Below are positions 1 to 9,895 of a stretch of 9,895 nucleotides of DNA, piece by piece. The stretch comes from Escherichia coli. GTDB lineage: Bacteria > Pseudomonadota > Gammaproteobacteria > Enterobacterales > Enterobacteriaceae. A program made the translations under genes and the position numbers. Every line of letters starts with the position of its first letter. Within the stretch, counting starts at the first letter, position 1. The stretch lies in the NCBI RefSeq assembly GCF_003334355.1, contig NZ_QOWP01000057.1. One strand, 5' to 3'. Under the pieces are notes generated by a model. It was not told where the DNA came from. It worked only from the letters and a program-made list of their open reading frames with translations, and did no database searches.

Positions 1-116
1 TGAATCTGAGGCAGCACCTGGCACGGCTGGGACGGAAGTCGCTGTCGTTCTCAAAATCGGTGGAGCTGCATGACAAAGTCATCGGGCATTATCTGAACAT
101 AAAACACTATCAATAA
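1..116 (+). CDS. insB: IS1 transposase InsB, C-terminal portion (5' end outside window)
   Basis: Frame starting at 3 translates to [37 protein letters not shown] with stop TAA at 114-116, which is the recalled InsB C-terminus. No start codon in window. Confidence 0.8.
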
Positions 117-131
117 GTTGGAGTCATTACC
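1..131 (+). mobile_element. IS1 insertion sequence, right-end fragment (element continues upstream of window start)
   Basis: Positions 1-131 match, from memory of the IS1 sequence, the InsB C-terminal coding region followed by the terminal inverted repeat (...CACTATCAATAAGTTGGAGTCATTACC ending at 131). Flanking DNA starts at 132. Confidence 0.85.
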
Positions 132-4209: not shown

Positions 4210-4219
4210 GCGTTCATTA

Positions 4220-4488
4220 ATTTGATTTATTCGCATCCATCAGCGCTTTTAACTCCTCCGGCGTAAACGGTGGTTTGCGTCGGTGCAACATCGCATGGCA
4301 ATTAGGGCACACAGGAAGTAAAAAAACATATGAGATCAAGGTAATATATCTTCGCTTGCAGGCTTGAACCGCAGAAAATTTGCGAGCATGATCGCAATTA
4401 TTTCACTGCCAGGGATATCAATGGCTTCCAGTAAATCGCTGACGAGCCTTTTTTTGCTCTCCAGCAAATCCGTAAGCAGCGTGACCCA
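4220..4488 (-). pseudogene. HNH endonuclease remnant (C-terminal CxxCH zinc-finger region), frameshifted, no start codon
   Basis: - strand frame with codons at 4402..4220 ends ...LISYVFLLPVCPNCHAMLHRRKPPFTPEELKALMDANKSN* (stop 4217-4219). An adjacent - strand frame (4488..4339) gives the protein-like VTLLTDLLESKKRLVSDLLEAIDIPGSEIIAIMLANFLRFKPASEDILP. The two segments are in different frames and both are bounded by stops upstream. Confidence 0.4.
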
Positions 4489-4857
4489 TTATTTCGCAAA
4501 CATGTATTACGCGCTTATAACTACCAGTGCGCAATATGTAGCTTTAATATTTGTTACGGCAACTCCACCGTCTCACTGGAAGCGACACATATAAAATGGA
4601 AACAACATGGTGGCCCTTGTGAAATTCCCAATGGCCTGGCGCTTTGCGCGATACATCATAAAGCCTTTGATAAAGGAACGATTGGCCTGGATGAAAATAT
4701 GCGGGTACTGGTATTGGATGCGGTAAACGGCGGAGAGATCATTGAGAGGTCATTCTGGGATTTTGACGGAAAAATTATTGCGTTGCCACAGGTGCGTAAA
4801 AATTACCCTTTTGAGGGGGTTGTAGAGTGGCATCGGAAAGAGTTTTTTAGGGGGTGA
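4435..4857 (+). pseudogene. HNH_2-type endonuclease remnant (N-terminally truncated; in-frame TAA at 4432-4434)
   Basis: + frame 4435-4857 translates to ...QQIRKQRDPLFRKHVLRAYNYQCAICSFNICYGNSTVSLEATHIKWKQHGGPCEIPNGLALCAIHHKAFDKGTIGLDENMRVLV...EFFRG*. This matches the recalled HNH_2 signature (FR..vL.aY..CAiC ... LEAaHI ... NGLaLC..HH.aFD.G). No plausible start codon or RBS; the upstream frame is closed by stops. Confidence 0.5.
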
Positions 4858-5169: not shown

Positions 5170-5472
5170 ATGGAATTATTAAATACTTATGATGATAAAG
5201 AAACAGCTGAAATATTTTTTGAAAGAATAGAAGGAGAGAAAAGATTAGCAAGTGAACGAGATGCTACGGAAACAGTCTATAACCTCTTCGGGCAACCAAC
5301 CTGGAAAAATTTATATCTTCTTGATATGTTTAACCTAAAAGAATTACAAGGGATTATAGAGTGTAGAAAAAATGGACAGTCTTTCGACCAGGAACGACAC
5401 CGGGAAATAATAAAAATGCTTGAATATGCAGCAAAATCGTTTGACTTAATTATTCCTGCACATTGGCGATAA
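5170..5472 (+). CDS. Hypothetical small protein (100 aa), function unknown
   Basis: ORF-track 5170-5472. AGGAAAA 5 nt upstream of the ATG; followed by a strong hairpin terminator. Sequence (MELLNTYDDKETAEIFFERIEGEKRLASERDATETVYNLFGQPTWKNLYLLD...) not recognised as any family I know. Confidence 0.5.
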   Translation: MELLNTYDDKETAEIFFERIEGEKRLASERDATETVYNLFGQPTWKNLYLLDMFNLKELQGIIECRKNGQSFDQERHREIIKMLEYAAKSFDLIIPAHWR

Positions 5473-5518: not shown

Positions 5519-8500
5519 TTACTCGCTAACCATCTTACTGAATAATTTCTCCAGATACAATGAGCCAGTATCCTCAATAAAAAGCACATTTCTGGCTTCC
5601 AGATTCTCTTTTGAATCAGGTACGTTTACTAAGTCAACATAACAAGTTTCAGAAACAATAAATGCACTTAATGATAAGTTATCATCCGATAATTTATGTT
5701 CAAGATTCTTGATTTCTTTATATAATCCGAACTTTGGATCATCAAGATTAAGATTGCGGATGCCTTTTGGATCAATAAGACTTAACCATTGTTTACCACT
5801 TTTATCATCGACTAACCACAATAAGAAATCCGGATAAAAATTACCCGCAGTAGCAAAGCCCAGGCCTCTATTTTTAGAATCCGCATTTCTTAGCAGATAT
5901 AAACTTTTATCACCAATAATTTTCTGCCCTTTTGTCGAATCAACAAAAGACTGAAGATCATGGACAAAAGTAATCTCACTTGATGCACCCAGTGTTGCCG
6001 GTCGCATTTTTAGCGGTATGTTGGCATTTTTTTCAATCGAAAGAAGTGGATAATAGAGATGTTTATCAAAGGTAATAGCAACCATCCCGGATGCACTCCA
6101 GGATTTTGCTTTACCGATTTCGCCGTCGATGACCAATTGTTGTAATTGTTCCAGCCGACTGGCATATGCCAACCCATCATCAGTTTCTTCGATCTCGAAA
6201 TGGTACATTTTGATCATACCAGGATCATCTTCTTTCACCTGCGTGACTTCATAAAACTGACCTTCATAAGCATTTTTCAATGTGTTGTAAAAGCGATCAG
6301 TATAATCAGTCAGCAGACGAAGCATAATATCTTCCTGCTTAGCAATATCTGCATATTGCTTAATCTCAAGCTCTGAAGCTGGAATCAAAAGGGTATACCA
6401 ACTATTTCCGATCTTTGTCTTACCGGTACAAAAGTCGATCAAACGTTGTTTATCCACACGTAAATTTGACCAGCCGCGTTGTAGTTTATAATTCTGAATG
6501 GCGAGATAAAGCCGATCAAAATCAAACGCACTAATGATTTTATAATCTAACTTCGCTTCATTACGCACGTTAACCGGAGTATTGTCCCCTTTTCTGCTGG
6601 TATCAATCGACTCAAGTTTCGGGTATAGGTCCAGCTTAATATGCGGCTGCTTAATTTTCCCCTGAAAATCAGCAGGAACTTCATACAATTCGGGAAAATA
6701 GACACGTTTAAAGCCGAGTCTTTGATTATCTTTATAACCATCTTTAAGCTTAAGTGTTTTAAGCCTGGTTGCTGGCATATTTGGCCGAGTTTCAAAATTC
6801 AGCTCAAGGATCTCGTCACTTGGCGTAATCCCTTCATCTTCCAGGTATTGTTTAAAGGTTGCCATGTAATCGGCACGTACACCGAATACATTCAGTGTCT
6901 CTAATTTTTCCAGATGCAACCCTTTCGGACGCTCACCGGGTGTACTGCGTTTCAAAGAATAATTGCGACCTTTAAGGCGAACGCCACGACCAAATAACTG
7001 AATGATCTGTGAACCTTCTCCACGGCCCATATTGAGCAATCCCATCGTTGAGACGCGCCAACTGCTCCAGCCTTCAGTAAATTTTCGCGAGCCGATCAAA
7101 ATATGTAGTTGCGAGTCTTTGTCATTTAACGTATGAAAGAGTGACTTCGCAAAATCATCTCTCTGATAATCAAATGTCGTATCCTCTTCACACATTTTGT
7201 AAAGAGACGGTGCATCACCAATATTGATAAGACCAAACGGTTCGGCCTCACCAACCTGTAATGCCAGTTCACCTTTACTGCCTATTAAATTCAGAACTCG
7301 CAGTCTCTGACCTGAGTGAGTGGTGTTAAACAAACGAGAAAGAATATCTGCGTAGATATCTTCCGGGCCGTTCATTAGTGCGGTAAAGCGATTTTCAAAA
7401 ATGTTACGCTCTTTGGTATCAAGAATTCGCGCTTTATTTTCAATGAGATCTTTAATCCACGATTTTGCCTGCGATTCATGATTTAAAAACCATGCTAAAA
7501 AACGCAGTACTGCGTGAATGTCTGAATCTTCACCACTTACGGTGTTACCGACAAAAACCCATAGCGGTTTTTCGATATTAAATTCATTTAATTTTTCTTT
7601 ATTCTTATTGAATAAATATTGTTGCTGATAAAAGCTGAGCAAACACGCGGTAAAATACTCATACCGACGCTCATCTTTTTTATCCTCTTCAGGATTAAGG
7701 TTAAGAATCAGTGATTCTTTACCATAACCATCCTCATAGAAGAATTTATAGGAGTAATCGAACAGAATCGATTTCCCATAGACTTCTCGTGTCGCCTGAA
7801 TACGCGCATCACGTTGTTCTTCGCTGGTTAATGCTATTTGCGCTAACTGTTCTTCGCTCAGTTTACCTAAGGCAGTTGTTTCAAAAAGCAGCTTTGCTTT
7901 TTTCTTCTGAATTTCTGTTTCAACTGCCTCAACATTATTGCCACCGGCCACTGCCTGGCCAAAAGTTGCTGAATATTCAAACGCAAATCCGTCACGCGTT
8001 AATTTGTCACGACGGCGCATCCAGGCACCAGCAGCACTTCCTGTGCCTTTATGCCCTTCATCAATCAGGACCAGATTGTTGCCTTCAAATGCCTCAACGG
8101 CAACAGTTTTGTCACCCATTTCATCGGCAAGTTTATTGATATCAATAACTTCAATCGTGCCTTTAAATGGCGCGGATTTACTCTTATCGAATAACTGGTA
8201 TTGGGTAAATCCTGAGTTTTCCAGTTCATCTAAATGTTGCTTCGATAGGCGTTCATCCGGCGTAAGCAGGATGATTTTATCCGGGTAATGATGGCTATTA
8301 CCGTTCTGGAAATAATGTAAATATTGCAAAATATTGACATGTAATAGCAGTGTCTTACCAGAACCAGTAGCGTTCCAGTATGCCAGTTTATTCAAATCAT
8401 CCAGAACGTATGATTTGAACTGATTAGCCCGGTCTTTTGCTGTTTTATCATTTTCAGCATTGTATGCTGCCAGCTCGTTATTTAGCCCATCGAGTAATTG

Positions 8501-8899
8501 CTGTTTACGGTTGAAGTACCAGTCCAGGTAGATCTCGGTAAACAGAAGCGACAAGTACTGAAAATATTTCATGTTCAGCACTGTGTCTTCTTTACGATTA
8601 CGGTGCTCGGTTATCTGCTGCCAGTGCTGCACGATATTGAGATCGTAACGACGCAGTTCATCGAGATCGATAAGATCGACCTCGAATAAATAGTTACTCA
8701 GCTCATGGAAGAATAAGCTTTGGCCATCTTCATGGATGCCTTCAAAGCGATCCTCGCCTAACCGATTCTTCAAACCTTGCAATGTGCCATCTTTAAAAAA
8801 ATGGAACATAAAGCGGTTTAAAACCAACTGCTTATGAAAGCTCAGCTTGCTGTTAGTCTCTTTTTTAACTGCTTTACCGGTGGTCGGTTTTTTAGCCAT
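5519..8899 (-). CDS. SF2 helicase with C-terminal PD-(D/E)xK nuclease motif; Type III restriction Res-like subunit (1126 aa)
   Basis: Intact ORF. Strong RBS GGAGGAGG 7 nt upstream of the ATG at 8899. Walker A ATGSGKT (aa 177-183; 8351-8371), motif II LIDEGH (aa 278-283; 8051-8062), motif VI QLFGRGVR (aa 634-641; 6977-7000), and C-terminal YPDFLLWLV...LIDPK (aa 1022-1045; 5765-5833) fitting PD-x(n)-(D/E)xK. Helicase-then-nuclease order matches Type III Res. Confidence 0.8.
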   Translation of the reverse strand: MAKKPTTGKAVKKETNSKLSFHKQLVLNRFMFHFFKDGTLQGLKNRLGEDRFEGIHEDGQSLFFHELSNYLFEVDLIDLDELRRYDLNIVQHWQQITEHRNRKEDTVLNMKYFQYLSLLFTEIYLDWYFNRKQQLLDGLNNELAAYNAENDKTAKDRANQFKSYVLDDLNKLAYWNATGSGKTLLLHVNILQYLHYFQNGNSHHYPDKIILLTPDERLSKQHLDELENSGFTQYQLFDKSKSAPFKGTIEVIDINKLADEMGDKTVAVEAFEGNNLVLIDEGHKGTGSAAGAWMRRRDKLTRDGFAFEYSATFGQAVAGGNNVEAVETEIQKKKAKLLFETTALGKLSEEQLAQIALTSEEQRDARIQATREVYGKSILFDYSYKFFYEDGYGKESLILNLNPEEDKKDERRYEYFTACLLSFYQQQYLFNKNKEKLNEFNIEKPLWVFVGNTVSGEDSDIHAVLRFLAWFLNHESQAKSWIKDLIENKARILDTKERNIFENRFTALMNGPEDIYADILSRLFNTTHSGQRLRVLNLIGSKGELALQVGEAEPFGLINIGDAPSLYKMCEEDTTFDYQRDDFAKSLFHTLNDKDSQLHILIGSRKFTEGWSSWRVSTMGLLNMGRGEGSQIIQLFGRGVRLKGRNYSLKRSTPGERPKGLHLEKLETLNVFGVRADYMATFKQYLEDEGITPSDEILELNFETRPNMPATRLKTLKLKDGYKDNQRLGFKRVYFPELYEVPADFQGKIKQPHIKLDLYPKLESIDTSRKGDNTPVNVRNEAKLDYKIISAFDFDRLYLAIQNYKLQRGWSNLRVDKQRLIDFCTGKTKIGNSWYTLLIPASELEIKQYADIAKQEDIMLRLLTDYTDRFYNTLKNAYEGQFYEVTQVKEDDPGMIKMYHFEIEETDDGLAYASRLEQLQQLVIDGEIGKAKSWSASGMVAITFDKHLYYPLLSIEKNANIPLKMRPATLGASSEITFVHDLQSFVDSTKGQKIIGDKSLYLLRNADSKNRGLGFATAGNFYPDFLLWLVDDKSGKQWLSLIDPKGIRNLNLDDPKFGLYKEIKNLEHKLSDDNLSLSAFIVSETCYVDLVNVPDSKENLEARNVLFIEDTGSLYLEKLFSKMVSE

Positions 8900-8901
8900 T
8901 C

Positions 8902-9873
8902 TTAAACCTCCTCCGCAAACATCAGGTTCAAGAATTCAGGTTCGATCTGGCGGATTTTCAGGCTACGAACAATCTCGCCGTCTTCTTCATCAACGGTAAA
9001 GGCGGTAGGTAAGTTATGATCGCCATTGATATAGATAACGTCGAACGTATTTTCTTTTGCATATAAATCGAATCTGTTGGCATATTTATTCAATTCTTCA
9101 TAGCCGATCTTGTCGCAATCGCGCCACAGAATAAGGGTACGCTCGCCAGTTGGTAGCGTTCCTTCAACACGCACATAGCCACGTTCGATATTGGATTCGA
9201 TGGATTTCACATGTAAGCCAATGAGATAGTTGAAAGTTTCAACTAAATCGATGTTCTTACGCTCAGTAGCACCTGCGGAATCCGTTGTAACATCCATTTC
9301 GTAGTTAAATGGTTTTTTGAAATTATCAGTATTGAGTAGTGAGCCTTTGCTTTCTGTTTCAAGCATATAGTTAAGAACATAATCCTCTCGAATTTCTTTA
9401 AGATCGTCGAAAAGATCCTTTGTTGTTTCAGTACGTTTCAGTGCTATATTGTTAAGAGTATCCTCAAAACTCTCAATTTTAATATATTTTATTAATGTCT
9501 GCTCAACTGGATTACAGCTTAGTGCTTTTCCATACTTCCAGTCAGTTGTAAAAATAGCTTTTTTTACTCTAGGCAAGGTAACAGAATAAAAATATTCACC
9601 TTGTTCGACCAAGCTAAATTTTCGAAAACCATTATCATCCCTATTCATATCTACCACTGCATGCCCTGTAGTACCAGAGCCAGCAAAATAGTCTAAGAAA
9701 TGAGCATACTTCGAATTACTAAGCGACTCTAAACATTCCTTAACCGCATAAATACTTTTTGGAAAAGAAAAATTAATCTGAGTCACGTTAAACAAACTAT
9801 TTAATAGTTCCGAACCATTGAACCGCCCCGGGTTTCCTGGAGAGTGTTTTATCTGTGAACTCAGGCTGCCAGA
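8902..9873 (-). CDS. Type III Mod-like N6/N4 DNA methyltransferase, C-terminal portion (AdoMet motif I plus C-terminal domain); reading frame interrupted upstream
   Basis: Open frame 9873..8902 contains FSFPKS...LDYFAGSGTTGHAV (motif I at 9667-9693) followed by RKFSLVEQGEYF, the pattern seen in beta-class and Type III Mod methyltransferases. The stop TAA overlaps the res RBS with only a 2-nt gap to the res ATG. In-frame stop at 9874-9876; a different frame is open 9800-9895. The catalytic DPPY-type motif is not in the window. Confidence 0.65.
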   Translation of the reverse strand, partial: SGSLSSQIKHSPGNPGRFNGSELLNSLFNVTQINFSFPKSIYAVKECLESLSNSKYAHFLDYFAGSGTTGHAVVDMNRDDNGFRKFSLVEQGEYFYSVTLPRVKKAIFTTDWKYGKALSCNPVEQTLIKYIKIESFEDTLNNIALKRTETTKDLFDDLKEIREDYVLNYMLETESKGSLLNTDNFKKPFNYEMDVTTDSAGATERKNIDLVETFNYLIGLHVKSIESNIERGYVRVEGTLPTGERTLILWRDCDKIGYEELNKYANRFDLYAKENTFDVIYINGDHNLPTAFTVDEEDGEIVRSLKIRQIEPEFLNLMFAEEV

Positions 9874-9895
9874 TCATCGTTTCCGATGGAAGCAT

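What the first reader, a model, noticed from the sequence alone, without database searches (positions are those of the whole stretch)
9797..9895. Mod-like gene is not one clean reading frame at its 5' side
The frame carrying the methyltransferase motif hits a stop at 9874-9876. A second - strand frame is open from the window edge (ATG at 9893-9895) down to a stop at 9797-9799. The two frames overlap for about 74 nt. This fits a frameshifted or 5'-truncated mod (pseudogene), an assembly indel, or less likely phase variation; I saw no long homopolymer or short-repeat tract here. In Type III systems Res needs Mod for target recognition, so a dead mod beside an intact res would be notable.
Basis: seen in the sequence. 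Interest (0 to 1): 0.55.

Follow-up and report, generated by a model that had tools for sequence, protein, structure and literature searches.

The report
IS629 insertion cutting a mod gene
The apparent frame switch at the 5' side of the methyltransferase gene is the edge of a common mobile element (IS629/IS1203) that cut the gene in two, at the point where a draft E. coli assembly contig ends; this is an ordinary gene disruption, not a frameshift.

Summary
The coordinates are correct, but the cause is not a frameshift, an indel or phase variation. Window 9819-9895 is the right end of an IS3-family element, IS629/IS1203. It is 77/77 identical to copies found in 4056 of 5426 complete E. coli genomes. 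From 9818 downwards the window matches an intact E. coli locus with 1 mismatch in 7219 bases. In that locus the methyltransferase (Mod) is 1034 aa, with DPPY at residue 497 and FAGSG at 774. The junction lies inside codon Y730, so the window keeps only residues 731-1034 and lacks the catalytic motif. The "second frame" (9895 to 9797) belongs to neither gene. The transposase ends in the third frame at 9861-9863, and a 32-codon open stretch has about a 0.2 probability by chance. The window is a whole 9895-bp contig (QOWP01000057.1), bounded by IS1 at one end and IS629 at the other. Two other assemblies show the same junction and a third breaks 1 nt from it, so the insertion is real. Mod is predicted dead, and the intact 1126-aa Res beside it is predicted inactive, because Type III Res needs Mod. 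I could not determine whether the 5' part of mod survives beyond the IS. Other E. coli strains carry independent IS insertions, deletions and nonsense mutations in this same gene. The finding is ordinary.

The parts
9819..9895 (-). Right terminal 77 nt of an IS3-family element, IS629/IS1203. Read on the + strand from the outer end it begins TGAACCGCCCCGGGTTTCCTGGAGAG. The window, which is a whole contig, ends inside the element.
   Evidence: It is 77/77 identical to copies annotated 'IS3-like element IS1203 family transposase', found in 4056 of 5426 complete E. coli genomes. It also aligns to the right end of the 1310-bp copy on S. boydii pSB4_227 (L002 1268-2577).
9861..9895 (-). Last 10 codons plus the stop (TGA, 9863-9861) of the IS transposase OrfB, '...ASIGNDDLAA*'.
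   Evidence: frame offset 2. The annotated transposase CDS in L002 ends at L002 2535, which corresponds to window 9861.
9818..9819 (.). Junction between the IS and mod. Position 9819 is the last IS base (the A of ...GGTTCA on the - strand). Position 9818 is the first mod base, the second base of codon Y730 in the intact gene.
   Evidence: The alignment to the intact locus L001 starts exactly at 9818, and upstream identity is at chance level. Contigs from two other assemblies (L004, L006) carry the same junction, and a third (L005) begins 1 nt past it.
8902..9818 (-). 3' remnant of the Type III-like mod gene, covering residues 731-1034 of a 1034-aa protein plus the stop at 8902-8904. It keeps the AdoMet-binding motif I (FAGSG). 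It lacks the catalytic motif IV (DPPY497), the region between the two motifs, and the N-terminal 730 residues.
   Evidence: 1 mismatch in 7219 bases against L001. PADLOC model MTase_III PDLC03646 matches the intact protein over its full length. Pfam N6_N4_Mtase covers residues 491-790, so the domain is cut at 730.
9797..9895 (-). It is a chance open frame that runs across the IS end into the mod remnant and is not a gene.
   Evidence: It is out of frame with both the transposase and mod. The chance probability of an open stretch this long is about 0.2.
5519..8899 (-). Intact res gene encoding a 1126-aa Type III-like restriction subunit. Its ATG lies 2 nt after the mod stop codon.
   Evidence: PADLOC model REase_III PDLC03654 matches over the full length. 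There is one substitution, A969T, relative to WP_001085526.1. Pfam ResIII is recorded for this protein.
1..131 (.). IS1 end at the other end of the contig. The contig is therefore bounded by repeated IS elements on both sides.
   Evidence: sequence ends ...GGAGTCATTACC; DDE_Tnp_IS1 fragment called at this end; the same IS1|nanC junction in E. coli 042.

Best explanation
An IS629/IS1203 element (IS3 family, 1310 bp) sits inside the mod gene of a Type III-like restriction-modification locus in the E. coli chromosome. The locus order is SNF2-like gene, mod, res, next to nanS/nanM/nanC. The element has the same orientation as mod, and its right end abuts codon 730/731. This cut separates the catalytic DPPY motif from the FxGxG AdoMet-binding motif. 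The window is a complete short-read contig that stops 77 nt inside the IS because the IS is a multi-copy repeat. The 'second frame' is IS sequence read out of frame. The insertion junction and the truncation of mod within this contig are shown directly. It is inferred that no functional Mod is made, so there is no methylation, and that the intact Res is inert because Type III Res depends on Mod for target recognition. Translation of res may also lose its coupling to mod. It is unresolved whether this is a simple insertion, with the 5' part of mod and a 3-4 bp target duplication on the far side, or an IS-mediated deletion or rearrangement.
For: Only window 9895 down to about 9800 matches IS3-family elements on thousands of plasmids and chromosomes. 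The rest of the query matches 'DNA methyltransferase | DEAD/DEAH box helicase' loci, starting exactly at query base 78. Window 9819-9895 is 77/77 identical to IS1203-family copies. A complete 1310-bp copy shows the ends TGAACCGCCCCGGG...CCCGGGGCGGTTCA and an OrfB stop that corresponds to window 9861. The intact homologue is 1034 aa with DPPY at 497 and FAGSG at 774, and the junction falls within codon Y730. The window differs from the intact locus at 1 base in 7219 from 9818 downwards. PADLOC models MTase_III and REase_III match over their full length. Pfam N6_N4_Mtase spans residues 491-790. The window is the entire contig QOWP01000057.1 of GCA_003334355.1. GCA_002190165.1 and Logan run ERR4578542 show the same junction, with 21 and 30 nt of IS respectively, and the GCA_012531255.1 contig begins 1 nt past it. 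Other E. coli genomes carry IS1, ISEc52 and ISKpn26 insertions and an IS1-mediated 5' deletion in the same gene. IS629 makes 3-4 bp target duplications and is a frequent cause of gene disruption in E. coli (PMC3271280).
Against: Only one end of the IS is in the window, so the full element, a target-site duplication and the 5' part of mod were not seen. The predicted N-terminal fragment proteins (730 aa plus read-through into the IS, for 3- or 4-bp duplications) are not in the protein collection. The predicted left junction is absent from JGI metagenome contigs. Both of these negatives are weak. None of the 5426 complete RefSeq E. coli genomes carries this junction, so no closed genome confirms the arrangement. 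The loss of function of Mod and Res is inferred, not measured.
Confidence: 0.95

Rival explanations
1. IS-mediated deletion or rearrangement rather than a simple insertion. Under this reading the IS629 copy marks a breakpoint, and the 5' 2.2 kb of mod, and perhaps the SNF2-like gene, are gone or lie elsewhere in the genome. This is a sub-variant of the best explanation, and it concerns only what lies beyond the window.
For: Exactly this kind of event occurs at the same locus in E. coli WP4-S18-ESBL-09, where IS1 abuts mod at nt 1117 and the SNF2-like gene plus the 5' part of mod are missing. 5'-truncated matches also occur in other complete genomes (H80-H83, H111). The predicted N-terminal fragment proteins and the left junction were not found.
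Against: Simple IS insertions that leave both halves in place also occur at this locus (IS1 in MINF_8D, ISEc52 in MARGA_4), and they are the usual result of IS3-family transposition. The negative look-ups are weak: NCBI pseudogenes have no protein records, and JGI metagenomes may simply lack this lineage.
Confidence: 0.33
2. A frameshift, small indel or base-call error within mod joins two mod reading frames.
For: Two overlapping open frames are present on the same strand.
Against: Upstream of 9818 there is no similarity to mod in any frame. The ungapped comparison with the intact gene falls to chance-level identity there. That stretch is instead 100% identical to an IS end. The junction recurs in independent assemblies.
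Confidence: 0.01
3. Phase-variable mod, switched ON and OFF through a repeat tract as in Haemophilus, Neisseria or Helicobacter phasevarions.
For: None beyond the broken reading frame.
Against: The intact mod gene has no repeat tract longer than A7 or (TA)5, and none lies near codon 730. The break coincides with an IS terminus.
Confidence: 0.01
4. The 8902-9795 ORF is a free-standing, functional protein with its own start: a C-terminal Mod module that works with Res.
For: The same 294-aa C-terminal ORF is created independently by W720* and S732* nonsense mutations in other contigs. Res stays intact in all of these.
Against: That recurrence is largely an ascertainment effect, because I searched for exactly this ORF, and only disruptions between codons 715 and 741 can produce it. 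Most complete genomes carrying this allele encode one continuous 1034-aa protein. The candidate starts (TTG 9795, GTG 9786) have no recognisable ribosome-binding site upstream. The fragment lacks the catalytic motif and the region between motifs IV and I.
Confidence: 0.03

Closest known systems
IS629 / IS1203 (IS3 family) insertional gene inactivation in E. coli and Shigella, for example the IS629 insertions catalogued in O157:H7 (PMC3271280)
   Same: The terminal sequence is identical (77/77). The end has the TG...CA form, and the OrfB C-terminus ends 42 nt before the element's end. The element interrupts a chromosomal gene, and short-read contigs break at it.
   Different: Only the right end is visible here, so the target duplication and the full element were not seen. 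This particular insertion site (mod codon 730) is absent from all 5426 complete RefSeq E. coli genomes that were searched.
Type III restriction-modification systems (EcoP15I, EcoP1I, StyLTI)
   Same: The gene order is mod then res, with res starting 2 nt after the mod stop. Mod has the beta-class motif order, DPPY before FxGxG. Res is an SF2 helicase-type subunit (Pfam ResIII). PADLOC models MTase_III and REase_III both match over their full length. The dependence of Res on Mod explains why breaking mod is tolerated (established knowledge).
   Different: Mod is 1034 aa and Res is 1126 aa. From memory, M.EcoP15I is about 645 aa and R.EcoP15I about 970 aa. Mod here has roughly 450 extra N-terminal residues. 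Intact loci also carry an SNF2/DrmD-like helicase gene directly upstream. No biochemical data for this system were consulted.
Other disrupted copies of this same mod gene in E. coli: IS1 in MINF_8D, E1316, E1739 and LAU-OXA; ISEc52 in MARGA_4; ISKpn26 in THO-010; an IS1-mediated deletion in WP4-S18-ESBL-09; W720* and S732* in metagenome contigs
   Same: It is the same locus and the same gene. Res is left intact (annotated as the full 1126-aa protein where checked), and the disruption is IS-driven or mutational.
   Different: Both the element and the position differ (IS629 at codon 730).

Membership tests
IS3 family, IS629/IS1203 group | Terminal inverted repeat with the ends 5'-TG...CA-3', matching known copies | tested here: met
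   On the + strand, 9819 onwards reads TGAACCGCCCCGGGTTTCC.... The stretch is 77/77 identical to IS1203-family copies. Both ends of the complete copy L002 1268-2577 begin TGAACCGCCCCGGG.
IS3 family, IS629/IS1203 group | About 1.3 kb element with orfA and orfB, a programmed -1 frameshift and a DDE transposase | not testable with these tools
   Only the last 77 nt are in the window, which is a contig end. The related copy L002 is 1310 bp and matches NCBIfam transpos_IS3 (E = 9e-93 for OrfB). The window holds only the last 10 OrfB codons.
IS3 family, IS629/IS1203 group | 3-4 bp target-site duplication flanking the element | not testable with these tools
   The left end lies outside the contig. 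The predicted left junction was not found in metagenome contigs, and the predicted fragment proteins were not found either.
Type III R-M Mod (beta-class N6-adenine methyltransferase) | Motif IV (D/N)PP(Y/F) lies N-terminal to motif I FxGxG within one polypeptide | tested here: not met
   The intact homologue meets this feature, with DPPY at 497 and FAGSG at 774. The copy in the window retains only FAGSG, so it is a remnant of a family member and not a functional member.
Type III R-M Mod (beta-class N6-adenine methyltransferase) | Sequence-profile match to Type III Mod | tested here: met
   The intact protein matches PADLOC MTase_III PDLC03646 at 1624 bits over residues 1-1034 and Pfam N6_N4_Mtase over 491-790. 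The window remnant is identical to residues 731-1034.
Type III R-M Res | SF2 helicase-type restriction subunit encoded directly downstream of mod | tested here: met
   Window 5519-8899 encodes 1126 aa. It matches PADLOC REase_III PDLC03654 at 2318 bits over the full length and has Pfam ResIII recorded. Its start lies 2 nt after the mod stop.
Type III R-M Res | C-terminal PD-(D/E)xK nuclease motif and demonstrated Mod-dependent cleavage | not tested
   I made no motif or structure analysis of the Res C-terminus, and no experimental data were consulted.
DISARM (considered because of the upstream DrmD-like gene) | Presence of drmA, drmB and drmC together with drmD and a methyltransferase | tested here: not met
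   The intact locus L001 holds only the SNF2/DrmD-like gene, the methyltransferase and the Res-like helicase. The NCBIfam DrmD models score below their curated cut-offs (667 bits against 950).
Phase-variable mod (phasevarion) | Simple-sequence repeat tract within the mod ORF | tested here: not met
   The longest tracts in the intact gene are A7 (twice) and (TA)5, and none is at the breakpoint.

The most novel reading that the evidence does not exclude
The disruptions seen at codons 720, 730 and 732 (two nonsense mutations and this IS629 insertion) are not just an effect of how I searched. Under this reading they reflect selection for a split arrangement, in which the C-terminal roughly 300 aa of Mod is expressed separately with an intact Res, perhaps driven by read-out from the IS, and gives some new Mod-independent activity.
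Probability: 0.02. Interest if true: 0.6.

Novelty: already known. Interest (0 to 1): 0.1.

Why it matters
It matters little beyond annotation. The mod gene on this contig should be called an IS-interrupted pseudogene, not a frameshifted gene, and the Type III-like system in this E. coli lineage should be scored as non-functional. More generally, a 'frame change' at the very edge of a short-read contig should first be checked for a repeat or IS boundary. The side observation that this three-gene locus is broken repeatedly and independently in E. coli fits the usual turnover of defence systems.

Tried and rejected
1. Frameshift or indel: rejected, because similarity to mod ends abruptly at 9818.

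2. Phase variation: rejected, because the gene has no repeat tract.

3. A read-out promoter from the IS, or an internal promoter for res: the consensus scan of 8700-9895 found no more promoter-like sites than shuffled sequence (2 found against 3.2 expected), so no claim is made.

4. Finding the far side of the IS. Exact look-ups of four predicted N-terminal fragment proteins found nothing. The 248-aa fragment look-up returned only unrelated breakpoints. Two attempts at a JGI metagenome scan were not sent because the queue was full. The scans that did run, for the left and right junctions, both found nothing. I did not scan genome contigs, because it holds one genome per species and is very unlikely to include this lineage.

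5. A literature search for the IS terminal sequence string found no papers.

6. DISARM membership for the locus: rejected, because drmA, drmB and drmC are absent and the DrmD models score below cut-off.

Full report
**Observation.** I translated the - strand of 8902-9895 in all three frames.
- The frame that carries the methyltransferase motif FAGSGTTG has a TGA at 9876-9874.
- The frame that starts with ATG at 9895-9893 is open for 32 codons, up to a TAG at 9799-9797.
- The two open stretches overlap by 74 nt.

A 32-codon open stretch has a probability of about 0.2 by chance, so the second frame carries no weight on its own.

**What the sequence is.** I ran a megablast of window 8600-9895 against 5426 complete E. 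coli genomes and against PLSDB plasmids. The query split into two unrelated parts.
- Bases 9895 down to about 9800 hit IS3-family elements in thousands of records.
- Bases 9818 downwards hit 91 chromosomes at 'DNA methyltransferase | DEAD/DEAH box helicase family protein', always starting exactly at query base 78, which is window 9818.

The 77 bases 9819-9895 are 100% identical to copies annotated 'IS3-like element IS1203 family transposase', present in 4056 of 5426 genomes. IS1203 is an isoform of IS629 (PMC3271280). A complete copy on S. boydii pSB4_227 is 1310 bp long and has the ends TGAACCGCCCCGGG...CCCGGGGCGGTTCA. Its transposase CDS stops at the position that corresponds to window 9861. 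In the window this is the third - strand frame, '...ASIGNDDLAA*'.

**The intact gene.** In E. coli NCCP12480 (L001) the locus holds three genes: an SNF2-related protein (963 aa), a DNA methyltransferase (1034 aa) and a DEAD/DEAH helicase (1126 aa). A 100-aa ORF, defence-gene remnants and nanS/nanM follow.
- PADLOC matches the methyltransferase over its full length to a Type III Mod model and the helicase over its full length to a Type III Res model. The SNF2 protein resembles DrmD, but below NCBIfam's curated cut-offs.
- The methyltransferase has DPPY at residue 497 and FAGSG at 774. Pfam N6_N4_Mtase spans residues 491-790.
- From 9818 downwards the window matches this locus with 1 mismatch in 7219 bases.
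- Upstream of 9818, identity to the intact gene is at chance level.
- The junction lies inside codon Y730.

The window therefore keeps residues 731-1034 only. It has lost the catalytic motif, the region between motifs IV and I, and the whole N-terminal 730 residues. Res is intact, with one substitution (A969T).

**Why the window stops there.** The exact Res protein is found on a contig of exactly 9895 bp, QOWP01000057.1 of assembly GCA_003334355.1, and this contig is the window. Its other end (1-131) is an IS1 end, at the same IS1|nanC junction as in E. coli 042. The contig is thus a unique segment bounded by two multi-copy IS elements, which is the normal way short-read assemblies break.

Contigs from GCA_002190165.1 and from Logan run ERR4578542 carry the same IS|mod junction, with 21 and 30 nt of IS respectively. 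The contig from GCA_012531255.1 starts 1 nt past the junction. The junction is therefore a real feature of a small lineage and not a chimera. No complete RefSeq E. coli genome has it.

**Mechanism and consequences.** The IS insertion or breakpoint inside the methyltransferase domain is shown directly. The rest is inferred.
- No active Mod can be made from this contig. The remnant has no ATG before codon 788 (window 9648), and only TTG and GTG starts without a recognisable ribosome-binding site.
- Type III Res depends on Mod for DNA recognition (established knowledge), so the system should be both restriction-negative and modification-negative.
- A dead mod is therefore harmless to the cell. 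This is why a dead mod next to an intact res is expected rather than remarkable.
- res starts 2 nt after the mod stop, so its translation may also suffer.
- A promoter scan gave nothing above background.

**Context.** The same gene is broken in many other ways in other E. coli strains.
- IS1 simple insertions (MINF_8D and others).
- An ISEc52 insertion.
- An ISKpn26 insertion.
- An IS1-mediated deletion that removes the SNF2-like gene and the first 1116 nt of mod.
- Other 5' truncations.
- W720* and S732* nonsense mutations in metagenome contigs.

The two nonsense mutations lie close to codon 730. I found them by looking up the exact 294-aa downstream ORF, and only disruptions between codons 715 and 741 can create that ORF. 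I therefore do not claim a hotspot.

**Unresolved.** I could not determine whether the 5' part of mod and the SNF2-like gene lie just beyond the IS (a simple insertion) or are lost (a deletion or rearrangement).
- Look-ups of the predicted N-terminal fragment proteins found nothing.
- Metagenome scans for both junctions found nothing.
- Both outcomes occur at this locus in other strains.

**Verdict.** The interpretation as a frameshift, indel or phase variation is wrong. 'Truncated pseudogene' is right for this contig. The cause is an ordinary IS629/IS1203 insertion seen at a contig end. Interest is low.

Noticed in passing
window 1-131: The other end of the contig is an IS1 terminus. The IS1|nanC-upstream junction at 131|132 is the same as in E. 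coli 042. There, IS1A sits between gntP plus a fimbrial-gene remnant and nanC, which suggests that IS1 has replaced the fim operon.
   Followed up: partly
window 4217-4321 (-) and 4435-4857 (+): Between nanS and the res-side genes lie remnants that RefSeq annotates, in the near-identical locus L001, as a partial HNH endonuclease and a partial 'phosphorothioated DNA-binding restriction endonuclease'. This looks like a small graveyard of defence genes next to the Type III-like system.
   Followed up: no
window 5170-5472 (+): A conserved 100-aa ORF lies convergent with res, directly downstream of it. It is present in every related locus seen and has no PADLOC or NCBIfam match.
   Followed up: partly
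L001 901-3792 (outside the window, upstream of mod in intact loci): Intact loci carry an SNF2/DrmD-like helicase gene (963 aa) directly upstream of an unusually long Mod (1034 aa, with about 450 extra N-terminal residues) and a long Res (1126 aa). This is a three-gene Type III-like arrangement and not a classical two-gene one. drmA, drmB and drmC are absent.
   Followed up: partly
L001 3813-6917 compared with hits H84-H110: Among the 167 complete E. coli genomes that match this mod gene, 76 do so at only 95-99% identity. The rows listed from that group (H84-H110) match at megablast level over only about 51-53% of the gene, in two pieces. This would fit a swapped central region (target-recognition domain) giving allelic specificity variants.
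   Followed up: no
L007 5320-5322, L008 3556-3558 (mod codons 720 and 732): Independent nonsense mutations, W720* (TGG to TAG) and S732* (TCG to TAG), lie within 10 codons of the IS629 site in metagenome-derived E. coli contigs. The S732* contigs also lose similarity to mod upstream of codon 84. This is probably an effect of how they were found, but the distribution of disruptions along the gene was not measured.
   Followed up: partly
window 5993-5995 (res codon 969): Every contig that carries the IS629 junction has the Res substitution A969T relative to the common allele WP_001085526.1. This is a lineage marker, and its functional effect is unknown.
   Followed up: no
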